Assembly: GCA_041653535.1 (NCBI GenBank)
Contig: JBAZFH010000002.1
Location: forward strand, 80,160-144,159
DNA length: 64,000 nt
DNA from: Patescibacteria group bacterium
GTDB lineage: Bacteria > Patescibacteriota > Patescibacteriia > JACRDY01
Direction of reading: 5' to 3'
The notes under the pieces were generated by a model. The model saw only the letters and a list, made by a program, of their open reading frames with translations, did no database searches and was not told where the DNA came from. Positions within the stretch are counted from its first letter, which is position 1, and each line of letters begins with the position of its first letter. The position numbers were made by a program, and so were the translations under genes. Below are positions 1,637 to 51,641 of this stretch, piece after piece.

Positions 1637-2419
1637 ATGTTGAGACGAGGGGTTAACCACGTCAATTACTCTGGTGGCGATTTTTCTGAGGGGCGACCGT
1701 CAAAAAACAATCTTGTTATCGAAATGTTTGGTTCAGAAGAGGCGTTTCGAGAAGCAGAACGACAGATGATGGCTGACCTCGAAGCGCGAGAAAAAACTGC
1801 CAAGGAAAAAAGGCAACATGAACTCTATGGAGATAAGAGGAGTAAAAAGGAAATCGAAAAAGCCAAACAGCAGGAATACCGTCTGGCTGTTCGTTGGCGC
1901 ATGTTGTCAGGAATACAGGAAGCTGCGCCGGTAGCGGGTTTTGCCGTTGGCGATAAGATCACTCCGTTGCGGGTTGTTGGTCCAACCGAAAGAGTCGAGG
2001 AAGACGAACAGATTTGGATTCATCGTCCGTGCATTGATGCTTGGCATGGCCCTATTATGGTCCGATGGCCAGAAGGAGCAGGCTTTTTGCCCACCTCGTT
2101 GAAACCGGGCAAAAGCTACACGGTAACCAAGGTGGCGCGTTACGGTTGGTTTAACAAATACGTAGGAGCGGACGCTGATCCTTTTTTTGGAAACCTTCTT
2201 CGTAGCTACACTGTTGAAGAGTTTTATTACGTCCAGTTGATTCAGTTGGCAGGTCAGGGAGACAAATGGTATAGCGCGCCGTTTTTCGTTCGCTTTGGTT
2301 TATGCGCCGAAGGTCAAGATCCTTTTCCCGCCAAGTTAAACCGTCTTTTCCGAGATGGTCGCGGTGATTGGGTCAAAAAGATTTCGGGCAAACCCATCAA
2401 GCAGAAAAAAAAGAAATAA
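1637..2419 (+). CDS. hypothetical protein (moderately GC-rich)
   Basis: 260-aa ORF with an RBS-like aaggagg upstream and the same terminator module downstream. Confidence 0.45.
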   Translation: MLRRGVNHVNYSGGDFSEGRPSKNNLVIEMFGSEEAFREAERQMMADLEAREKTAKEKRQHELYGDKRSKKEIEKAKQQEYRLAVRWRMLSGIQEAAPVAGFAVGDKITPLRVVGPTERVEEDEQIWIHRPCIDAWHGPIMVRWPEGAGFLPTSLKPGKSYTVTKVARYGWFNKYVGADADPFFGNLLRSYTVEEFYYVQLIQLAGQGDKWYSAPFFVRFGLCAEGQDPFPAKLNRLFRDGRGDWVKKISGKPIKQKKKK

Positions 2420-6533: not shown

Positions 6534-6595
6534 TAACCTTTTGCCCTGCGCGGGCGGCGGATACTTTCTGCAAACAGAAAGTATCAAAAGATTTT

Positions 6596-6697
6596 CTGGG
6601 GTGGCATAAGCCCGAGTTTTATAGCACCTTACGGTTCTCTAAACCCGCCTCGTCCGCCGCGGCGGACTTCGGCTCGGGGCAACGCCACCCCAGAACC
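6596..6697. ncRNA. GC-rich structured intergenic element (possible small RNA or repeat)
   Basis: 11-bp closing stem tctggggtggc/gccaccccaga; inner stem cccgag/ctcggg; 16-bp palindrome gtccgccgcggcggac. Confidence 0.3.
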
Positions 6698-21247: not shown

Positions 21248-21499
21248 ACTTTAATCATATCGGAAAATGGTGATAATTTAAATAGGGCGCTTTTGTTTCA
21301 AGAAAATAAACCCGTAGAGTTTCAATTATCTCAATCAATCCGTTTCTAACTTCCTTTCGCCCGCCACCCCATAAAAAAGCATTTGCCTTTTGGCATAATG
21401 CTTTTTTATTTTGTAAGACTGAGGGGTTTGAACGGTCCGCCAGCTGGCGGATGCCCAGGGCGATGAACCCAGCTGCGGGGCTCTGCAGCTGGGGACGAG

Positions 21500-21517
21500 A
21501 TCCCGATAGCCACCCCA
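21500..21517 (+). repeat. attR: 18-nt direct repeat of the tRNA-His 3' end
   Basis: exact match to 13792-13809. Confidence 0.65.
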
Positions 21518-21882
21518 TGAAAAATTCTCACCGCTTCGGCGGTTGAGAGGTTTTTATTTTTTTAATTTTAAAAGGCTTGCCTTGCGGCAAGTCTTTATAA
21601 TTTTTAGTTATCAGGGGTTGACGTAGTGGTCAAACCTGTTATACTAACCGCACTTATGGTTCAGCTTGAGCCTAGGATAATAAATAAAGACAAAGGTATG
21701 ACACATTTTGATGATGAGAACACTGAAGCTACCGCTACCGAAGCTACCGAAGCTGAGGTTACTCCTGAAGCAACAGAAGAAGAAACTGTTGCTACCCCAG
21801 AAGAGACTGGCGACCAAGCCGTCTAACTCTCCAGCGATTATTCGCTAAAAAAAGTAGAGCCCTTAAATTGGGCCCTATTTTT

Positions 21883-31886: not shown

Positions 31887-32921
31887 TTATTTTTTGAGGA
31901 AATCATCGAAAATATCGATGGTTTTTTTGATGTCAAAAACAGATGCCCCTTTGTCGGTGCCGGTTATTTTCGGACCCAGTTCGAGATTGATAACATTAAA
32001 TCGTTCCTGCGTAATTACGCTATTTTTAACAACAAAACCAACCAGATCAAGGAACCTTTCTTTTTCTTCGGGTAAATGTTTAAGGAATTTGTTGATACCA
32101 ATATGGCTGTCGAGCTGATAAGACAGTCCCCAGACGATCATTTGCCATAAATAAGTTTTTGATTTTGTATGCGTTCCGTTGATTATTTTGCGATAATTTC
32201 AGTGCGGTGAAACCAGATGGGCGTAGTTGATTTTTGGTAAAAGTCCGTATCGCAGTAAGTCTTTTTTAATTTCTTCATAATCTCCGCCGTAGTGTATTAA
32301 TGTATGGCTGAAATCAAAGGTAATTCCCCAATTTTCATTGTTTCCCCAGCGTTGAACAAGAGGTTCAAAATCTTTAAGATCTGAACCAAAACATCCGCCG
32401 TGAATTTCGCCGCAAACCGTTTCGATATTAACTATTACGCCGTTATCTGCGGCTATAGGTAGTACTTGTTCAAAAATTTTTCCTATTTGCAAGGTATTGT
32501 CGTCAAAAGATTTTTTTCTTCTGCCCAAGTGAATAGTGATAATTGCCGGTTTATCGGTACCAGGAGAGACGTCTTTTAGCCGGCGTAAAAATTTTATTTG
32601 TTCAATCAGTAATTTAACCCCGTCTTGCGGGTTGGCTAGATAATCAACTTGATTGCTGAGTAGACCAAAGGCGATTAATCCGTGCAGACGGAGTCCGTGC
32701 TCGCCGTTAGTTAGCGGCATCTTTTTTTCTTTAAAAAGATTGATTATTTTTTCCGCCGCGCCCTTTTTTAGCTCGATTTTTTTCCAATCCACCAGCGGTG
32801 GCGACAAAAAAAGCGTCGGTTCTACGCCGCTGATTTTATTTAAGGCTTCCCGTGCCGTTGGAAAAATATAGGAAAATGCCTTGAGATAACGATAAGCTGA
32901 GCTAGGAATGATGAAATTCAT
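31887..32921 (-). pseudogene. sugar-phosphate isomerase/epimerase (xylose-isomerase-like TIM barrel), apparently frameshifted
   Basis: two consecutive ORFs (32199-32921 and 31887-32141) in different frames together cover one domain (HLG...NIETV...FDFSH | ...LDSHIGIN). Confidence 0.45.
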
Positions 32922-33325: not shown

Positions 33326-33568
33326 TTATATTAGTCTCTTGTTTCTAAAGGTCATACCAGATGCTGTCTTTAGATATTTTTCAAAATCCAAAGCCCGTTT
33401 TTTGTCATCAAAAGCGGAATAATAAAGCATTTTCCACGGCTTAAACTTATTGGTATGAGGAGATTTTCCTTTATTATGATCAGCTAACCTTTCATCAATA
33501 TCTTTTGAAAAGCCAGTGTAAAACTGTTTTGGAAAATTTACGCTCTGGATGATGTAGACGTAAAACAT
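33326..33568 (-). CDS. GIY-YIG nuclease family protein (YhbQ/UPF0213-like)
   Basis: MFYVYIIQS...YTGFSKDIDERLADHN GIY-YIG motifs; ~80 aa. Confidence 0.8.
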   Translation of the reverse strand: MFYVYIIQSVNFPKQFYTGFSKDIDERLADHNKGKSPHTNKFKPWKMLYYSAFDDKKRALDFEKYLKTASGMTFRNKRLI

Positions 33569-33590
33569 TTGATTTGATTATTACCTATTG

Positions 33591-33702
33591 GCCGTGCCAT
33601 CCGTAGCTCGCGACAAGAATAGCAGTGTAAACGTCAACAAAATACAGCCCTCCTTCGCTCTTCGAGCTACGGAGGATATTCTTCGCTCTAGTGAGCGAAG
33701 AA
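33591..33702 (-). repeat. conserved ~110-nt structured element, copy 1 (between tRNA-Ala and the GIY-YIG gene)
   Basis: shares a 27-nt 5' block and a 58-nt 3' block with 34982-35094; internal stems ccgtagctcg/cgagctacgg and ttcgctc/gagcgaa. Confidence 0.5.
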
Positions 33703-33778
33703 TGGTGGACCCTACCGGGCTCGAACCGGTCACCTCTTCCATGCCATGGAAGCGCTCTACCAAATGAGCTAAGGGCCC
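33703..33778 (-). tRNA. tRNA-Ala(GGC), CCA encoded, G3:U70
   Basis: gggcccttagctcatttggtagagcgcttccatGGCatggaag...ggtccacca. Confidence 0.8.
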
Positions 33779-34215
33779 CCACACCAACCTTAAACCGTCG
33801 GTAATTTGTTAAGAATAATGATTTTAACAAAACGACGTTTTAGTACTTTGAATAGTCTAATCAAAGTTGGTTTGGGGGCAAGCCCAAGAATAAATTAAGG
33901 ATAAAAGTTAATCAACGAACCAAATGCTTGTCCGCCGCCTGTCTACGCGAAGTTCGCCGCGGCGAACGAAGGCAGGAAGCCCGAATGTAATGAGGGCGAA
34001 GGTGGAAGCTAATGGCCCAAAACTAAATAAAAAATTAAAAATCAAATATCAAAAATATTGTACGATGACAGTATTTTAGCAAATTGGACGAATAATGCAA
34101 CAAGGTAGTTATAGTATAAGAAAACTGAATTAAAACAGCTTCGGTATTTATTTTAAATATTTTACGACTCTTGATTTTGTTTAATTTTAGATATTATTTA
34201 CCACAACCACCATTT

Positions 34216-34250
34216 ACCATCTACAAATTTGTTTCACGTGAAACATTTTT
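34216..34250. repeat. left terminal repeat containing the perfect 16-bp palindrome TGTTTCACGTGAAACA
   Basis: accatctacaaatttgtttcacgtgaaacattttt; inverted partner at 36388-36422. Confidence 0.55.
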
Positions 34251-34270
34251 TCTTCTTAGCGAATTTGACT

Positions 34271-34303
34271 GGATAAAAAGATGGTAGTAATATATTATTG
34301 TCT
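34271..34303 (+). promoter_or_regulatory. sigma70-like promoter (TTGACT-N17-TAATAT)
   Basis: ttgactggataaaaagatggtagtaatat directly upstream of the structured region. Confidence 0.45.
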
Positions 34304-34446
34304 GAACGGCTAAATTTCCTCGACCATCCTTGAGAGAGAACAGTTTTGAACAAACAGCCAGACCAGGCAGCCAGCATTTTTTTACTGCCGTTCAGACGTC
34401 AGTCAATCAGTCGGGTCTCACATGGGACCCGACTTTTTATTTTTTG
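34297..34446 (+). ncRNA. candidate small RNA (~150 nt) with closing stem and intrinsic terminator
   Basis: closing stem tgtctgaacggc/gccgttcagac; terminator gtcgggtctcacatgggacccgac + T8; promoter upstream; no ORF. Confidence 0.4.
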
Positions 34447-34981
34447 CCACTACCCTTTTTATTGCTAAGGTGGCTTACTCCTTTTTGCCTCAAAAGACAA
34501 GAGGTCTAGGGAAAGGGGAGTAGTGGTAAAATATAAGAAAGTACCATAATTTTTGACAAAATCATCTGAAAAAGATAAAATAATAGCATGATTTATTCGT
34601 CGAGCAGCCATTTTTAATAGCTGCCGCAACCTTTTTGGCAACGTGTATTGGCCACGTTGGACGAATAGATTATTCCGTGAGGGGCATCCGCCTTACCGCG
34701 AAGATGATCGTTTAACGACGGAACGACCATACAAAACGACTACCAAACCTAGCCGGCCAATATAAGCAATGTCTTTTGACGCTCAGCTTTATATACGACT
34801 AGCCAAGAATGTAGTACGTCGTTCACCTACCCAATAGAACGCTTCGGCGTTCTTTTTAATTCCTTACAGGAAACCCCGCATGACCAAAGCGCCCCGAAGC
34901 TGGGCGCGAATGGAGTGCGGTGAGGACGTTGTTTACAACGAAAAACGGGGGTATTCCCCCACTGTCTTTTAAATAATTTTG

Positions 34982-35094
34982 ACCGTGCCATTCGTAGCTT
35001 GCGACAAGGGAAAAGAAATAAGTAACTTATAGCTCTCCTTCGCTCTTCGAGCTACGGAAGACATTCTTCGCTCTAGCGAGCGAAGAATAGTGGG
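34982..35094 (-). repeat. conserved ~110-nt structured element, copy 2 (abutting a tRNA-Val 3' fragment)
   Basis: accgtgccattcgtagcttgcgacaag ... ctccttcgctcttcgagctacggaagacattcttcgctctagcgagcgaagaatagtgg. Confidence 0.5.
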
Positions 35095-35150
35095 CATACG
35101 TGGATTTAAACCACGGACCTCTGTCGTGTGAGGACAGCGTCCCGCCCGCT
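35094..35150 (-). pseudogene. tRNA-Val-like 3' fragment (anticodon arm + T arm + 3' acceptor only)
   Basis: shares acctctgtcgtgtgaggacagcg with the intact tRNA-Val; no 5' acceptor or D arm. Confidence 0.5.
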
Positions 35151-35205
35151 TTGTCTAGCGATAAGTAATAAACTTGTTATATTTTAGAGGCAAAAAATGA
35201 TATTC

Positions 35206-35282
35206 TGGTGGGTTCGACAGGATTTGAACCTGTGACCTCTGTCGTGTGAGGACAGCGCTCTAACCAACTGAGCTACGAACCC
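35206..35282 (-). tRNA. tRNA-Val(CAC), CCA encoded
   Basis: gggttcgtagctcagttggttagagcgctgtcctCACacgacag...cgaacccacca. Confidence 0.8.
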
Positions 35283-35350
35283 TCTAATTAATAGACGAAG
35301 CTAGGCGGGCGGGTATAACCAGCTGAGCTATATGTCCCGCGATAAATAAA
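35283..35350 (-). pseudogene. tRNA 5' fragment (acceptor + D arm, then GC-rich hairpin)
   Basis: gcgggacatatagctcagctggttatacccgcccgc on minus strand; no anticodon or T arm. Confidence 0.4.
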
Positions 35351-35369
35351 AAGTAATTAGACAAGTTAA

Positions 35370-35978
35370 TTATTCTTGTTCCGGGAATTTATCGGGAAAA
35401 AGACTGAAAAAAGATACTTCTCCGGTATTTTTGTTAATTTTAACACCTGGTTTCTCTAATATTTCTGATCTTGGCATATTGATCTGATGACTACTTAAAG
35501 CAACTTTTATACCTGCAGAGATAATATCACCCGCATTAAATAGCCTTATTTGGCAGTCAGAAATTTTTAAGCCGTAACTTTTAAGCCTGTATTTTAGCTG
35601 ATTAATTAAATCTTCAGTAATTCCATTTTCGAGATTTAGCGAAAGATGCAACATTCCGGCTATTTTCCTTTCAGGTTTAGCCAATGTTATAATGGCACAA
35701 GATATTGGCAATGCTTCTAGATAATCGATATTATCTTTTTCTCCAATAATGTCTAAATCGTCGGTAAAAACCTCTCGTGATTTTATTTTCTCAGAAGAAC
35801 AACCAATGTAGTTCTGCTTTTCCGGGTTTTTACCGGTTTTTTCTTGGTATAGCCTATCTGCTTCCAATATCCCCTTTGCCAGACATTCAAAAACAATCTT
35901 TCCGCCGGCGGAGTTGTCCCGATAAATAAATTTTTTTAATTCTTCGGTATGGTTTGCTTTTGGTTCAAATTTTTCCAT
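35370..35978 (-). CDS. hypothetical protein
   Basis: 202-aa ORF inside the tRNA cluster; no family recognised. Confidence 0.4.
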   Translation of the reverse strand: MEKFEPKANHTEELKKFIYRDNSAGGKIVFECLAKGILEADRLYQEKTGKNPEKQNYIGCSSEKIKSREVFTDDLDIIGEKDNIDYLEALPISCAIITLAKPERKIAGMLHLSLNLENGITEDLINQLKYRLKSYGLKISDCQIRLFNAGDIISAGIKVALSSHQINMPRSEILEKPGVKINKNTGEVSFFSLFPDKFPEQE

Positions 35979-36387: not shown

Positions 36388-36422
36388 ATTTTTGTTTCAC
36401 GTGAAACATTTTTGTAGATGGT
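36388..36422. repeat. right terminal repeat containing the TGTTTCACGTGAAACA palindrome
   Basis: aatttttgtttcacgtgaaacatttttgtagatggt; gtagatggt is the reverse complement of accatctac at 34216. Confidence 0.55.
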
Positions 36423-36575
36423 ACGCGATGCTTGGTAGAAATAAACTCTAAAATTAAACTAATTCAAGTGTCGTACAATGTATTACTAAACTTTAGAAAT
36501 TTTTAATTTGCTTTTTGATAAAACTAACAACGGTGGTATAATTCTAGCTGATAATCTACTTAAAATCAATCTTTT

Positions 36576-37652
36576 ATGGAAATAATTCTTGGAATCATAA
36601 TACTCGCGCTTTTATTGGCCATTGGCATAGTTGCCTATTTGTATAGTAAAAAAGGACAAATTACCACACCGCCTGCCGATCAGAACAGTTTATTACTAAT
36701 TCAGAACCAACTCAATGAATTAACTCGGACAATCGATAGTAAAATAGGAGAGTCGTCAAAAATGATGAACCAGTCGGTAATTACTCAGTTTTCCGAGTCG
36801 CAAAAATTGATAAAAGAAATCACCCAAGAGCTTTCTCAAGTAAAAGAAACTGGCAAAAGAGTGGAAGGCTTTGCTGATCAGTTGCAAAGTCTGCAAGATA
36901 TTTTAAAAAATCCAAAGCAGCGCGGAATACTCGGAGAATATTATCTGGAAGCTGTGCTGAAAAATGTTTTGCCGCCGGGCAGCTATCAGATGCAATATAA
37001 GCTTGGTAAAGACGAAGGTGGAAAAGATTTGATTCCCGATGCCGTAGTTTTTGTCAAAGATAAAATCATTCCGGTTGATTCCAAATTTTCTCTAGAGAAT
37101 TATAATCGCATCGTCGAGGAAAAAGATTCGGCAGAAAAATCTCGTCTAGAAAAACTTTTCGTCAACGATCTTAAAGAACGTATTGTCGAGACCGCAAAAT
37201 ATATTCAGCCAAGCAAGGGGACTATGGATTTTGCTTTTATGTTTATTCCGCACGAAGCGATTTATTACGATTTGATTGTAAATAAAATCGGCGCTCTCAA
37301 AGAAGATACGGAAAGTCTGATCCAGCGCGCTGCGTCGAAATATAAAGTAATTATTGTTTCGCCAACATCTTTTTTAGCTTATCTGCAAACGGTTTTGCAG
37401 GGACTGAAAGCCATGCAAATCGAAGAGCAAGCAAAAGATATTGTGAAGCGCGTTGGTGACCTGACAGTGCATCTGAAAAAATATGCAGAAAAATATGACA
37501 AGCTTGGTCGGTCGCTCAGCACGGTAGTAAATCAATACGATGATGGCGCTAGTGAGTTTAAAAAAATAGATAAAGATTTGATTCGTATTAGCCAGACCGA
37601 TGAAGCATTGGGATACGAGCCGTTGAAAATAGATAAACCGAGAGGGGAGTAA
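36576..37652 (+). CDS. rmuC: DNA recombination protein RmuC
   Basis: N-terminal TM, long coiled coil, conserved RmuC C-terminal domain (FAFMFIPHEAIYYD...VIIVSPTSFLAYLQTV). Confidence 0.85.
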   Translation: MEIILGIIILALLLAIGIVAYLYSKKGQITTPPADQNSLLLIQNQLNELTRTIDSKIGESSKMMNQSVITQFSESQKLIKEITQELSQVKETGKRVEGFADQLQSLQDILKNPKQRGILGEYYLEAVLKNVLPPGSYQMQYKLGKDEGGKDLIPDAVVFVKDKIIPVDSKFSLENYNRIVEEKDSAEKSRLEKLFVNDLKERIVETAKYIQPSKGTMDFAFMFIPHEAIYYDLIVNKIGALKEDTESLIQRAASKYKVIIVSPTSFLAYLQTVLQGLKAMQIEEQAKDIVKRVGDLTVHLKKYAEKYDKLGRSLSTVVNQYDDGASEFKKIDKDLIRISQTDEALGYEPLKIDKPRGE

Positions 37653-38527: not shown

Positions 38528-38555
38528 GTACCAAGGTGGGGTGACGCTCCGTTGT

Positions 38556-38690
38556 CATCCTGAGCCTGCGAAGGATCCCTCTTTATAACCCATGTACGGG
38601 AAAAACAATCTTCACGTAATCATCGACGGTTACGTTTTAATATTCGCGTTTAGCTCTTTTCCGGAGGGATCCTTCACTTCGTTCAGGATG
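38556..38690. repeat. MITE-like element: ~28-bp imperfect inverted repeats around a ~75-nt core
   Basis: gtcatcctgagcctgcgaaggatccctc ... gagggatccttcacttcgttcaggatgac. Confidence 0.5.
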
Positions 38691-38736
38691 ACAGTAGGGT
38701 TTATCCTGGGCGTAGGTGAGGGATTTGGAATGACAG

Positions 38737-47496: not shown

Positions 47497-47546
47497 GCCG
47501 AGGTAGCTCAGTGGTACCTGCCTGCCGGCAGGCAGGGAGCGAAGGA
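47497..47546 (+). other. duplicated 5' portion of tRNA-Phe, split by a 20-nt GC palindrome
   Basis: gccgaggtagctcagtggta + cctgcctgccggcaggcagg + gagcgaagga; the same 30 nt are contiguous in the intact tRNA-Phe at 47796. Confidence 0.55.
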
Positions 47547-47555
47547 TAAAAAAAT

Positions 47556-47795
47556 ATGCAGTATTTTATTTATGTTATAAAAAGCAAAAAGGATGGTCGA
47601 TTGTACGTTGGAATGACATCCGATCTTGAAGAAAGGTTGTTTTATCATAATGCCGGTTATCAATTTTCGACAAAAGGATATAGGCCGTGGGAAATAGTAT
47701 ATTCAGAAAGAGCGGCTTCTAGATTGTTGGCTAGACAGCGAGAAAAATATTTCAAGAGTGGTTGCGGAAAAGAATTTTTAAAAAGTTTTATTTGA
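47556..47795 (+). CDS. GIY-YIG nuclease family protein (YhbQ/UPF0213-like)
   Basis: MQYFIYVIKSKKDGRLYVGMTSDLEERLFYHN; stop codon directly abuts tRNA-Phe. Confidence 0.85.
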   Translation: MQYFIYVIKSKKDGRLYVGMTSDLEERLFYHNAGYQFSTKGYRPWEIVYSERAASRLLARQREKYFKSGCGKEFLKSFI

Positions 47796-47870
47796 GCCGA
47801 GGTAGCTCAGTGGTAGAGCGAAGGACTGAAAATCCTTGCGTCGGCGGTTCAATCCCGCCCCTCGGCACCA
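47796..47870 (+). tRNA. tRNA-Phe(GAA), CCA encoded
   Basis: gccgaggtagctcagtggtagagcgaaggactGAAaatcc...cctcggcacca. Confidence 0.85.
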
Positions 47871-47880
47871 CTTCATTTTT

Positions 47881-48153
47881 ATGTATTACCTATATTTACT
47901 AAAAAGTAAAACTGACAATAAATGTTATATTGGTTCTACAAACGACTTAAAGAGGAGGCTGGAATAACACAATAAAGAATTAGTTGTTAGTACAAAATCG
48001 AAAAGACCATTTGAACTTTTGTATTATGAGGCTTACAAAAACGAAAAAGATGCTAGACTTAGGGAAAGCAGGCTTAAGTTGAAAAGCAGGGCATATGAAC
48101 AATTAAGGAAAAGATTAAAAAATAGTATAAAAGAAAGTGAAACTGCTGTGTAG
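47881..48153 (+). pseudogene. GIY-YIG nuclease gene interrupted by an in-frame TAA at 47965-47967
   Basis: MYYLYLLKSKTDNKCYIGSTNDLKRRLE*HNKELVV...; GIY-YIG motifs lie on both sides of the stop. Confidence 0.6.

Positions 48154-50157: not shown

Positions 50158-51641
<1,484 letters not shown>

What the first reader, a model, noticed from the sequence alone, without database searches (positions are those of the whole stretch)
34271..34446. Promoter- and terminator-bounded ~150-nt structured RNA candidate in an ORF-free 1.5 kb region
A TTGACT-N17-TAATAT promoter is followed by a region whose ends pair as a 12-bp stem (tgtctgaacggc/gccgttcagacg), and then by a strong intrinsic terminator (gtcgggtc...ggacccgac + T-run). 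No ORF of 60 aa or more exists from 33831 to 35369. I could not match it to tmRNA, RNase P RNA or SRP RNA motifs, so it may be 6S-like or novel.
Basis: seen in the sequence. Interest (0 to 1): 0.5.

Follow-up and report, generated by a model that had tools for sequence, protein, structure and literature searches.

The report
Orphan small RNA gene candidate
A roughly 140-nt stretch in an uncultivated Patescibacteria (CPR) genome looks like a stand-alone small non-coding RNA gene, with a promoter-like site, an 11-bp clamp helix and a strong terminator, but it matches no known RNA family and occurs only in this one species-level population, so it stays a modest orphan candidate.

Summary
The described features are present. 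They are TTGACT-N17-TAATAT (34265-34293), a perfect 11-bp helix plus one U·G pair (34299/34300-34310 with 34387-34397/98), and a strong + strand intrinsic terminator (34409-34434 plus T-run). They sit in a 1.5-kb stretch with no ORF of 60 aa or more. The fold is far more stable than shuffles (z -5.8). In this genome strong terminators mostly lie 5-85 nt behind a same-strand ORF, whereas this one is 2.5 kb from any. No Rfam family matches even at E<=10, so it is not 6S, SRP, tmRNA, RNase P or a group I intron. No homologue was found in the window, in the closest relative's syntenic locus, in GTDB species genomes or in viral contigs. Two other metagenome assemblies carry the same locus with 100% identical flanks but a rearranged inner hairpin. 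Its pyrimidine arm has moved from the 5' to the 3' side of the purine tract, a net +4 nt change. This excludes coding, keeps the clamp and keeps total fold energy (-50.8 vs -50.7 kcal/mol). Best reading: a lineage-restricted, independently transcribed small RNA of unknown target. The main rival is an orphaned terminator and hairpin in a decaying, recombination-prone tRNA/GIY-YIG region. Interest is low to moderate.

The parts
34159..34245 (+). Upstream element, 80% identical to the reverse complement of 36393-36479 (the leader or upstream region of the tRNA-Arg/Arg/Ala operon). It ends in the perfect 16-bp palindrome TGTTTCACGTGAAACA (34230-34245), centred about 62 nt before the proposed start.
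   Evidence: Only two copies occur in the window. A regulatory role is inferred, not shown.
34265..34293 (+). Sigma-70-like promoter candidate: -35 TTGACT, 17-nt spacer, -10 TAATAT. The implied start is near G34300.
   Evidence: 9 of 12 matches; this match quality occurs at chance frequency. Its position 7 nt before the helix is read directly from the sequence. It is similar in form to the promoter-like hexamers read from the sequence upstream of tRNA-Ile (TTGATT-N16-TATAAT) and found by the consensus scan upstream of RmuC.
34299..34310 (+). 5' arm of the clamp helix: U·G wobble plus GUCUGAACGGC.
   Evidence: pair probabilities 0.98-1.0 in both alleles.
34314..34346 (+). Variable inner hairpin. 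In allele A (window) AUUUCCUC lies 5' of GAGAGAGAA. In allele B (L009, L012) the same 8-mer lies 3' of it, with an extra TGAA; net +4 nt.
   Evidence: The hairpins are weak (-6.1 and -6.8 kcal/mol, z about -0.9).
34355..34386 (+). Mostly unpaired C/A-rich segment CAGCCAGACCAGGCAGCCAGCAUUUUUUUACU with three CCAG repeats. Proposed interaction surface. Identical in both alleles.
   Evidence: mean unpaired probability 0.67-0.68 over the first 22 nt, CAGCCAGACCAGGCAGCCAGCA. The function is inferred.
34387..34398 (+). 3' arm of the clamp helix: GCCGUUCAGAC plus G.
34398..34408 (+). Linker made of GTCA-like tetranucleotide repeats (GTCA GTCA ATCA GTC). Both allele-B contigs from independent assemblies stop at 34401.
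   Evidence: Repeat-length polymorphism as the cause of the contig ends is an inference.
34409..34446 (+). Intrinsic terminator: 11-bp stem (7 G-C, one U·G), ACAU loop and a U-rich tail. It works on the + strand only, because the - strand lacks a T-run after the stem.

Best explanation
The segment is an independently transcribed, lineage-restricted small non-coding RNA of about 135-145 nt in a Patescibacteria (CPR) bacterium.

Proposed transcript (inferred): transcription starts near G34300 from a sigma-70-type promoter and stops at the intrinsic terminator, around 34440.

Shown by folding: the body is closed by an 11-bp clamp between its first and last nucleotides. The clamp encloses weak hairpins and a largely unpaired C/A-rich stretch with three CCAG repeats. 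That stretch is unchanged between alleles.

Most likely mode of action (inferred, not shown): the clamp and the terminator hairpin protect both ends of the RNA. The exposed C/A-rich stretch then acts in trans, either by base-pairing with an mRNA or another RNA, or by binding a protein.
For: 1. Structure: MFE -50.6 kcal/mol, z -5.8, 0 of 200 shuffles as stable. Clamp pair probabilities are 0.98-1.0.

2. Terminator census: 32 strong terminators in the window. Most sit 5-85 nt after a same-strand ORF stop, and one follows a tRNA gene. The one at 34409-34434 is among the strongest (11 bp, 7 G-C) yet lies 2,527 nt from any same-strand ORF of 80 aa or more. Something non-coding therefore ends there on the + strand.

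3. Promoter position: a promoter-like site ends exactly 7 nt before the clamp. At the local hit density, about 0.01 such coincidences are expected in a given 10-nt interval (my estimate).

4. Composition: the body is 47-48% GC between spacers of 17-33% GC. This is the usual signature of RNA genes in AT-rich intergenic DNA.

5. Not coding: allele B differs by net +4 nt in otherwise 100% identical DNA. This frameshifts every reading frame on both strands. No Pfam signal was found in any ORF fragment.

6. Alleles: both keep the clamp, a UUUCCUC/GAGAGAGAA hairpin and the same total energy, -50.8 vs -50.7 kcal/mol.

7. Strand: U·G wobbles in the clamp and terminator would be A·C mismatches on the other strand (sequence).
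Against: There are no transcription data.

The promoter match (9 of 12) is at chance frequency on its own.

No homologue or paralogue was found anywhere. The searches covered the window and 13 related loci with a covariance model, the closest relative's syntenic tRNA locus, GTDB species genomes (three hits, all chance matches in unrelated phyla), viral contigs, and phage and plasmid collections.

There is therefore no covariation support at all.

The inner hairpins are not more stable than shuffles.

No convincing target appeared among 67 translation-start regions in the window. The best duplex (-30.7) was weaker than the mean best for shuffled RNA (-38.7).

The surroundings show signs of decay and rearrangement: tRNA fragments, duplicated flanks, a truncated neighbouring gene. 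An orphaned terminator plus a fortuitous hairpin is therefore possible.
Confidence: 0.45

Rival explanations
1. It is a non-functional remnant. Under this reading the terminator was orphaned by gene loss, and the 11-bp inverted repeat is a fortuitous or mutation-driven hairpin. Both lie in a decaying, recombination-prone stretch between tRNA genes and GIY-YIG selfish-gene flanks, and the promoter match is chance.
For: The island is bracketed by duplicated 115-120-nt flanks, DR1 33588-33708 and DR2 34979-35093. tRNA fragments lie nearby.

The neighbouring TIM-barrel gene is 240 aa against 345-350 aa in its only homologues.

The locus is absent from the nearest relative.

The promoter match is at chance frequency.

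The only differences between near-identical strains are indels inside the element, as expected for unconstrained hairpin-prone DNA.
Against: No pseudogene trace was found: no Pfam hit on island ORF fragments, and no tblastn hit from 1,283 ORF translations of the window and related loci apart from DR1 against DR2.

The promoter, clamp and terminator are arranged in exact register.

The body is a discrete GC-rich patch.

The rearranged allele keeps the clamp, a hairpin and the fold energy.

The 535 nt of non-coding DNA just upstream shows no difference at all between the same strains.
Confidence: 0.33
2. It is part of a - strand transcript or a DNA-level element. One version is a long 5' leader of tRNA-Ala(GGC) driven by the - strand promoter-like site at 34559-34530. 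Another is a protein-binding or recombination inverted repeat.
For: The only consensus-like - strand promoter in the island is TTGTCA-18-TATATT at 34559-34530, 10 of 12 matches.

The - strand folds as well as the + strand (-51.6 kcal/mol, z -4.8).

Both allele-B contigs break at 34401, which hints at a structural polymorphism next to the repeat.
Against: The T-run follows the terminator stem only on the + strand.

The wobble pairs favour the + strand.

There are no target-site duplications and no other copies, so it is not a MITE- or REP-type repeat.

No recombinase gene is nearby.
Confidence: 0.08
3. It is a known housekeeping RNA, such as 6S, SRP, Y/YrlA-like or RNase P, that has diverged beyond detection in this fast-evolving lineage.
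For: CPR RNAs are often divergent. Orthologous tRNA-Val genes of this genome and its nearest relative are only about 78% identical. The size (100-143 nt) and the paired ends superficially recall 4.5S or Y RNAs.
Against: No Rfam hit at E<=10 on a 1.7-kb query with permissive filters.

ARAGORN finds no tmRNA.

There is no SRP helix-8 motif, no rod with a central bubble, and no T-loop (sequence).

A housekeeping RNA would not tolerate a rearranged hairpin between near-identical strains, and it would be found in relatives.
Confidence: 0.05
4. It is a type I toxin-antitoxin-like or small-peptide locus. The structured RNA would be the 5' untranslated region of a 33-aa hydrophobic peptide (34422-34523, MGPDFLFFATTLFIAKVAYSFLPQKTRGLGKGE). 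The start codon lies in the terminator loop, and a - strand promoter could make an antisense RNA.
For: An ATG-started 33-aa ORF with a hydrophobic core is present. A convergent - strand promoter-like site lies at 34559-34530.
Against: There is no Shine-Dalgarno sequence before the ATG.

The hydrophobicity comes from translating the terminator's T-run.

The ORF lies downstream of a strong terminator.

It is not called as a gene in any assembly on record.
Confidence: 0.04

Closest known systems
Terminator-ended trans-acting bacterial sRNAs (the general class, for example enterobacterial or Bacillus sRNAs of 80-200 nt)
   Same: It has its own sigma-70-like promoter and a 3' intrinsic terminator hairpin with a U-tail. 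It is non-coding and about 140 nt long. It has an exposed single-stranded segment and is restricted to a narrow lineage.
   Different: No target, chaperone or expression evidence is available. The body is closed by an unusually long 11-bp clamp between its 5' end and its 3' part. No homologues exist from which to define a family.
6S RNA (Rfam RF00013 and related models)
   Same: Both are stable-RNA-like, with 5' and 3' parts paired and a loosely paired interior.
   Different: There is no covariance-model hit at E<=10. It is too short: about 100 nt without the terminator against about 180 nt. It lacks a terminal helix opposite the closing stem, so there is no open-promoter mimic. It also carries an intrinsic terminator, which I do not recall as typical of 6S RNAs (from memory, not checked here).
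Bacterial small SRP RNA (4.5S, RF00169) and Y/YrlA RNAs
   Same: The size is similar (about 100-115 nt) and the ends are paired. The stretch ACCAGG...AGCA faintly recalls SRP helix-8 loop residues.
   Different: There is no GNAR tetraloop hairpin, no symmetric or asymmetric loop arrangement and no model hit. There is no T-arm-like module as in YrlA. No Ro or SRP-protein context was examined.
Riboswitch or attenuator leaders (aptamer closed by a P1 helix and followed by a terminator)
   Same: The architecture is similar: a P1-like closing helix around a multi-branch interior, followed 11 nt later by a terminator.
   Different: There is no same-strand gene to regulate. The next + strand ORF of 60 aa or more starts at 35949, beyond - strand tRNA genes and a - strand ORF. 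No convincing anti-terminator pairing was found, and nothing is conserved.

Membership tests
6S RNA | Match to the 6S covariance models | tested here: not met
   No hit at the gathering threshold or at E<=10 on 33700-35400.
6S RNA | Rod of about 180 nt with closing stem, large central bubble and terminal stem-loop (open-promoter mimic) | tested here: not met
   The MFE and centroid show an 11-bp clamp around three weak hairpins and an 18-nt single strand, with no opposing terminal helix. The body is only about 100 nt.
SRP RNA (4.5S) | Helix 8 with a GNAR tetraloop and conserved symmetric and asymmetric loops; match to the covariance model | tested here: not met
   No hit at E<=10. The sequence lacks the hairpin.
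tmRNA | tRNA-like domain plus tag reading frame | tested here: not met
   ARAGORN finds no tmRNA in the window. No Rfam hit.
RNase P RNA | Conserved catalytic core (P4 and related) of about 300-400 nt; match to the covariance model | tested here: not met
   No Rfam hit. The element is too short.
Group I intron in a Patescibacteria tRNA gene (PMC13011429) | Group I core detectable by covariance model, flanked by the two halves of one tRNA | tested here: not met
   No Intron_gpI hit at E<=10. No tRNA halves flank the element on the + strand.
Riboswitch / transcription attenuator | A downstream same-strand gene under its control | tested here: not met
   There is no + strand ORF of 60 aa or more until 35949, and - strand tRNA genes and ORF202 lie in between.
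MITE / REP-type repeat | Many copies per genome; terminal inverted repeats flanked by target-site duplications | tested here: not met
   It is a single copy in 64 kb. No duplication flanks the repeat. There are no related copies in the public collections. The rest of the genome could not be read.
Terminator-ended trans-acting sRNA | Intrinsic terminator at the 3' end that is not serving a protein gene | tested here: met
Terminator-ended trans-acting sRNA | Non-coding | tested here: met
   The +4-nt allele lies in otherwise identical DNA. No Pfam signal.
Terminator-ended trans-acting sRNA | Own promoter and a discrete transcript | tested here: inconclusive
   The promoter-like site is well placed but has chance-level quality. 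Expression cannot be tested with these tools.
Terminator-ended trans-acting sRNA | Complementarity to a target RNA | tested here: inconclusive
   No duplex better than shuffled controls among 67 start regions of the window. The rest of the genome was not available.
Type I toxin-antitoxin | Translatable small hydrophobic toxin ORF with an overlapping antisense RNA | tested here: inconclusive
   A 33-aa ORF exists at 34422-34523. It has no ribosome-binding site and lies after the terminator. It is not on record as a called gene.

The most novel reading that the evidence does not exclude
The element could be the first seen member of a clamp-closed small RNA class peculiar to this CPR lineage. Under this reading its inner hairpin is under diversifying or structure-preserving selection, shown by the arm-swapped alleles in otherwise identical genomes. 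It might be tied to the tRNA-targeting GIY-YIG selfish genes around it, for example as an immunity or regulatory RNA co-controlled with the tRNA operon through the shared palindrome-bearing upstream element.
Probability: 0.06. Interest if true: 0.6.

Novelty: new member of a known kind. Interest (0 to 1): 0.28.

Why it matters
I found no report of a regulatory RNA in Patescibacteria/CPR bacteria in two full-text searches. These organisms have tiny genomes, and from general knowledge, not checked here, many lack the usual RNA chaperones. A verified stand-alone sRNA would be a useful entry point into RNA regulation in this group. The arm-swapped natural allele would also be a neat case of structure-preserving rearrangement. 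As it stands, the element is a single-species orphan with no expression or covariation evidence, so its value is as a candidate for metatranscriptome checks rather than as a discovery.

Tried and rejected
- Rfam at the gathering threshold and at E<=10: nothing on the element. ARAGORN: no tmRNA.
- Synteny through RmuC homologues. The nearest relative (87% RmuC, L001) keeps the tRNA cluster but shows no similarity to the element. The 77%-identity relatives have no synteny.
- ORF202 and the TIM-barrel neighbour have almost no relatives, so they are useless as anchors.
- Exact-pattern scans. The interior 22-mer gave 0 hits in GTDB genomes, 0 in viral contigs, and 1 metagenome contig that is the same locus. 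The clamp-with-gap pattern gave 0 viral hits and 3 genome hits, which were chance matches in Curvibacter, Dehalococcoidia and Puniceicoccaceae with unrelated interiors.
- Covariance model R1 over 176 kb of held sequence: only itself.
- Phage and plasmid BLAST of the island: nothing.
- Pseudogene search by Pfam and tblastn: nothing except DR1 against DR2.
- Similarity between the element and the next unit (34588-34862): not above shuffles.
- Target search with duplex energies: no signal.
- MITE, integron attC, retron, group I intron and T-box readings were considered and dropped. The required parts were missing: no other copies or target-site duplications, no R'/R'' cores, no reverse transcriptase, no intron core or flanking exons, and no downstream gene.
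- Look-ups of exact RmuC, ORF202 and three small island ORFs to obtain more alleles: not on record.
- Literature: two full-text searches for CPR small or structured RNAs gave nothing relevant. The paper on Patescibacteria tRNA group I introns (PMC13011429, found) was read and does not apply.

Full report
**Source organism**

RmuC (36576-37652) and the hypothetical protein at 35370-35978 are 100% identical to proteins of a 'MAG: Patescibacteria group bacterium' (locus tags WC310_...) on a 323-kb contig. The window carries many tRNA genes and a lone 16S rRNA gene. Its GC content is about 40%. The closest relative in a database of 5.8 billion proteins has only 87% RmuC identity, and the next are about 77%. 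This lineage is therefore very thinly sampled.

**Checking the observation**

- The promoter-like site is TTGACT-N17-TAATAT at 34265-34293. It scores 9 of 12. Sites of this quality occur at chance frequency in the region, 5 found against 4.2 expected. However, it ends exactly 7 nt before the first base of the helix.
- The helix is a perfect 11-bp inverted repeat, 34300-34310 with 34387-34397, plus a U·G pair. The spacer is 76 nt.
- The terminator at 34409-34434 has 11 pairs, 7 of them G-C. A T-run follows it on the + strand only.
- The 151-nt stretch folds at -50.6 kcal/mol. Shuffles average -30.4, giving z -5.8. Without the terminator z is -4.0.
- No ORF of 60 aa or more lies between 33831 and 35369.

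**Is it more than chance?**

I made a census of strong terminators in the window and found 32. Most lie 5-85 nt behind the stop of a same-strand ORF, and one follows a tRNA gene. The genome therefore uses canonical intrinsic terminators. The terminator in question is 2,527 nt from any same-strand ORF of 80 aa or more. A + strand transcript must therefore start between the - strand tRNA-Ala(GGC) gene (33703-33778) and 34409, and it does not encode a protein.

The body is also a 47-48% GC patch between spacers of 17-33% GC. That pattern is typical of RNA genes in AT-rich intergenic DNA.

**Known families**

- Rfam gives no hit on the element at the gathering threshold or at E<=10 with permissive filters.
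- ARAGORN finds no tmRNA.
- The predicted shape is a clamp around three weak hairpins and an 18-nt single strand. It is not the rod with a central bubble of 6S RNA, and it lacks the SRP helix-8 hairpin.
[quoted passage not shown] No intron core or flanking tRNA halves are present here.
- A riboswitch or attenuator reading fails because there is no same-strand gene downstream.

**Relatives and conservation**

- In the nearest relative (L001, GCA_016218485.1) the tRNA-Val / tRNA-Ala(CGC) / tRNA-Arg / tRNA-Arg / RmuC arrangement is kept. Nothing there resembles the element. Even the orthologous tRNA-Val genes are only about 78% identical.
- More distant relatives have no synteny.
- The neighbouring genes have almost no homologues.
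- A 22-mer from the unpaired interior is absent from GTDB species genomes and from viral contigs.
- A clamp-with-gap pattern hit only three unrelated genomes with unrelated interiors. About one hit is expected by chance.
- A covariance model found only the element itself in 176 kb of held sequence.

**A natural variant**

The 22-mer did hit one metagenome contig, L009 (JGI Ga0172380_10233473). A look-up of the adjacent GIY-YIG protein brought in a second, independent assembly, L012 (ENA ERZ27247358).

Both are 100% identical to the window over 1,331 nt and 1,091 nt upstream, and over the last 55 nt. Between 34314 and 34346 they differ:
- the 8-mer ATTTCCTC is missing from the 5' side of the purine tract GAGAGAGAA;
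- it reappears 23 nt downstream, on the 3' side;
- an extra TGAA is present, making the net change +4 nt.

This has three consequences.
- No reading frame on either strand survives, so the element is non-coding.
- In both alleles the pyrimidine block can pair with the purine tract. These hairpins are weak, -6.1 and -6.8 kcal/mol, and are not significant on their own.
- The clamp, the unpaired C/A-rich segment and the total energy are unchanged, -50.8 against -50.7 kcal/mol.

The 535 nt of non-coding DNA just upstream shows no difference at all, so the changes are concentrated in the element.

Both allele-B contigs end at exactly 34401, just before a GTCA-GTCA-ATCA-GTC linker. This suggests further polymorphism there, which is my inference. 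Whether all this reflects selection on structure or the known mutability of hairpins cannot be decided from two alleles.

**Surroundings**

The element lies in a 1.4-kb island (33779-35205) between tRNA-Ala(GGC) and tRNA-Val(CAC), both on the - strand. The island also contains:
- a hairpin at 34447-34529;
- a second unit with the best promoter match of the region, TTGACA-17-TAAAAT at 34553-34581 (11 of 12), running about 270 nt to a terminator at 34836-34853;
- a strongly structured GC-rich segment at 34855-34964 (z -4 to -5) that ends in a bidirectional terminator.

The 87 nt upstream of the element (34159-34245) are 80% identical to the reverse complement of 36393-36479, upstream of the tRNA-Arg/Arg/Ala operon. 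The match includes a perfect 16-bp palindrome. Common regulation is possible but unproven.

The island is bracketed by two 115-120-nt direct repeats, each directly following a tRNA or tRNA fragment. These repeats contain tRNA-like pieces and, in one case, precede a small GIY-YIG gene.

Two more GIY-YIG genes sit among tRNA genes at 47556-48153. One is wedged between a 5' fragment of tRNA-Phe and the intact gene. The other carries an in-frame stop. The region is thus a hot spot of tRNA-associated selfish-gene activity and rearrangement. This supports the main rival reading, that the terminator and hairpin are leftovers. Against that rival, no pseudogene trace was found in the island.

**Verdict**

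The most likely explanation (about 0.45) is a genuine, independently transcribed, lineage-restricted small RNA. Its ends are protected by a clamp and a terminator hairpin, and its unpaired CCAG-rich stretch is the probable interaction surface. Only the structure, the terminator context and the non-coding nature are shown. The promoter use, the transcript and the mode of action are inferred.

A non-functional remnant is the main alternative (about 0.33). The element is not 6S-like and not a member of any described family. It rates as a new, orphan member of the familiar kind 'terminator-ended bacterial sRNA candidate'. Interest is low to moderate until expression data or homologues exist.

Noticed in passing
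window 35091-35340 (- strand); also L001 about 1940-2340 (- strand): The intact tRNA-Val(CAC) gene (35206-35282) is nested inside a disrupted tRNA-like gene. A 5' fragment (acceptor plus D-arm, about 35314-35340) is followed by the GC-rich linker CCCGCCCGCC-TAG. Downstream lies the complementary linker TAG...GCGGGCGGG and then a 3' tRNA-Val-like fragment (35091-35140). The relative L001 shows the same layout around tRNA-Arg(CCG) and tRNA-Arg(CCT), with linkers CCGCCTGCCAACGCC-TAG and TAG-GCCTTGGCGGGCAGG. It could be a processing stem, or the scar of a tRNA-carrying insertion into a resident tRNA gene.
   Followed up: partly
window 33326-33568 (-), 47497-47870 (+), 47881-48153 (+): Three small GIY-YIG nuclease genes (79-90 aa) lie directly beside tRNA genes. 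One sits between a 31-nt 5' fragment of tRNA-Phe, itself interrupted by a 20-nt GC hairpin, and the intact tRNA-Phe. Another has an in-frame TAA and is probably a pseudogene. This looks like homing-endonuclease-type selfish genes targeting tRNA genes, as for phage T4 SegB (PMC2330249).
   Followed up: partly
window 33588-33708 and 34979-35093: Two direct repeats of 115-120 nt (80-90% identical), each starting at the 3' end of a tRNA or tRNA fragment on the - strand. They contain hairpins and tRNA-like pieces (CCGTAGCTCG...GAGCGAAGGAG). DR1 is followed by a GIY-YIG gene and DR2 is not. Together they bracket the ORF-free island.
   Followed up: partly
window 34553-34862 (+): A second candidate RNA unit. 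It has the best promoter match of the region (TTGACA-17-TAAAAT, 11 of 12). A 14-bp closing stem starts 7 nt after the -10 box. The unit runs about 270 nt to a terminator at 34836-34853 plus T-run. Fold z is -2.6 and there is no Rfam hit.
   Followed up: partly
window 34855-34975: A GC-rich (about 60%), strongly structured segment (-45.8 kcal/mol, z -4.1 to -5.3). It ends in a GGGGG/CCCCC hairpin that works better as a - strand terminator, probably for the tRNA-Val transcript.
   Followed up: partly
window 34159-34245 and 36393-36479: An 87-nt inverted repeat (80% identical) that includes the perfect palindrome TGTTTCACGTGAAACA. One copy lies upstream of the candidate RNA. The other lies between the conserved - strand promoter-like site TTGATT-17-TAGAAT (36569-36541, also present in L001) and the tRNA-Arg/Arg/Ala operon.
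   Followed up: partly
window 21423-21555 (+): Another ORF-poor, GC-rich structured element. It has a GGGGU/ACCCC closing stem, two GC-rich hairpins and a terminator with a U-run. Fold is -66 kcal/mol, z -3.8, with no convincing Rfam hit. This is a further orphan sRNA candidate.
   Followed up: partly
window 6594-6695 and 38549-38700: Two other intergenic elements closed by perfect 12-bp inverted repeats with 78-82-nt spacers. The first shares a 22-nt palindromic core (CGAAGTYCGCCGCGGCGRAC) with 33948-33969 in the island. The second lies inside a longer TGTCATCCTGAGC.../...GTTCAGGATGACA repeat.
   Followed up: partly
window 31887-32921 (-): The TIM-barrel (AP_endonuc_2) ORF is 240 aa, while its only homologues are 345-350 aa. 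It is possibly a truncated or split gene, a hint of local gene decay.
   Followed up: no
window 50159-51641 (-): The 16S rRNA gene stands alone. There is no 23S rRNA gene anywhere in the 50 kb downstream within the window, so the rRNA genes are unlinked. Its 3' end reads GGAUCACCUCCUUUCU.
   Followed up: no
L001 361-470 and 2339-2450: In the nearest relative a different hairpin-like element of about 110 nt (78% identical copies, rich in TTAAAAC) also occurs twice. One copy is upstream of the tRNA operon and the other is beside an ORF-free stretch. This loosely parallels the duplicated upstream element in the window.
   Followed up: partly
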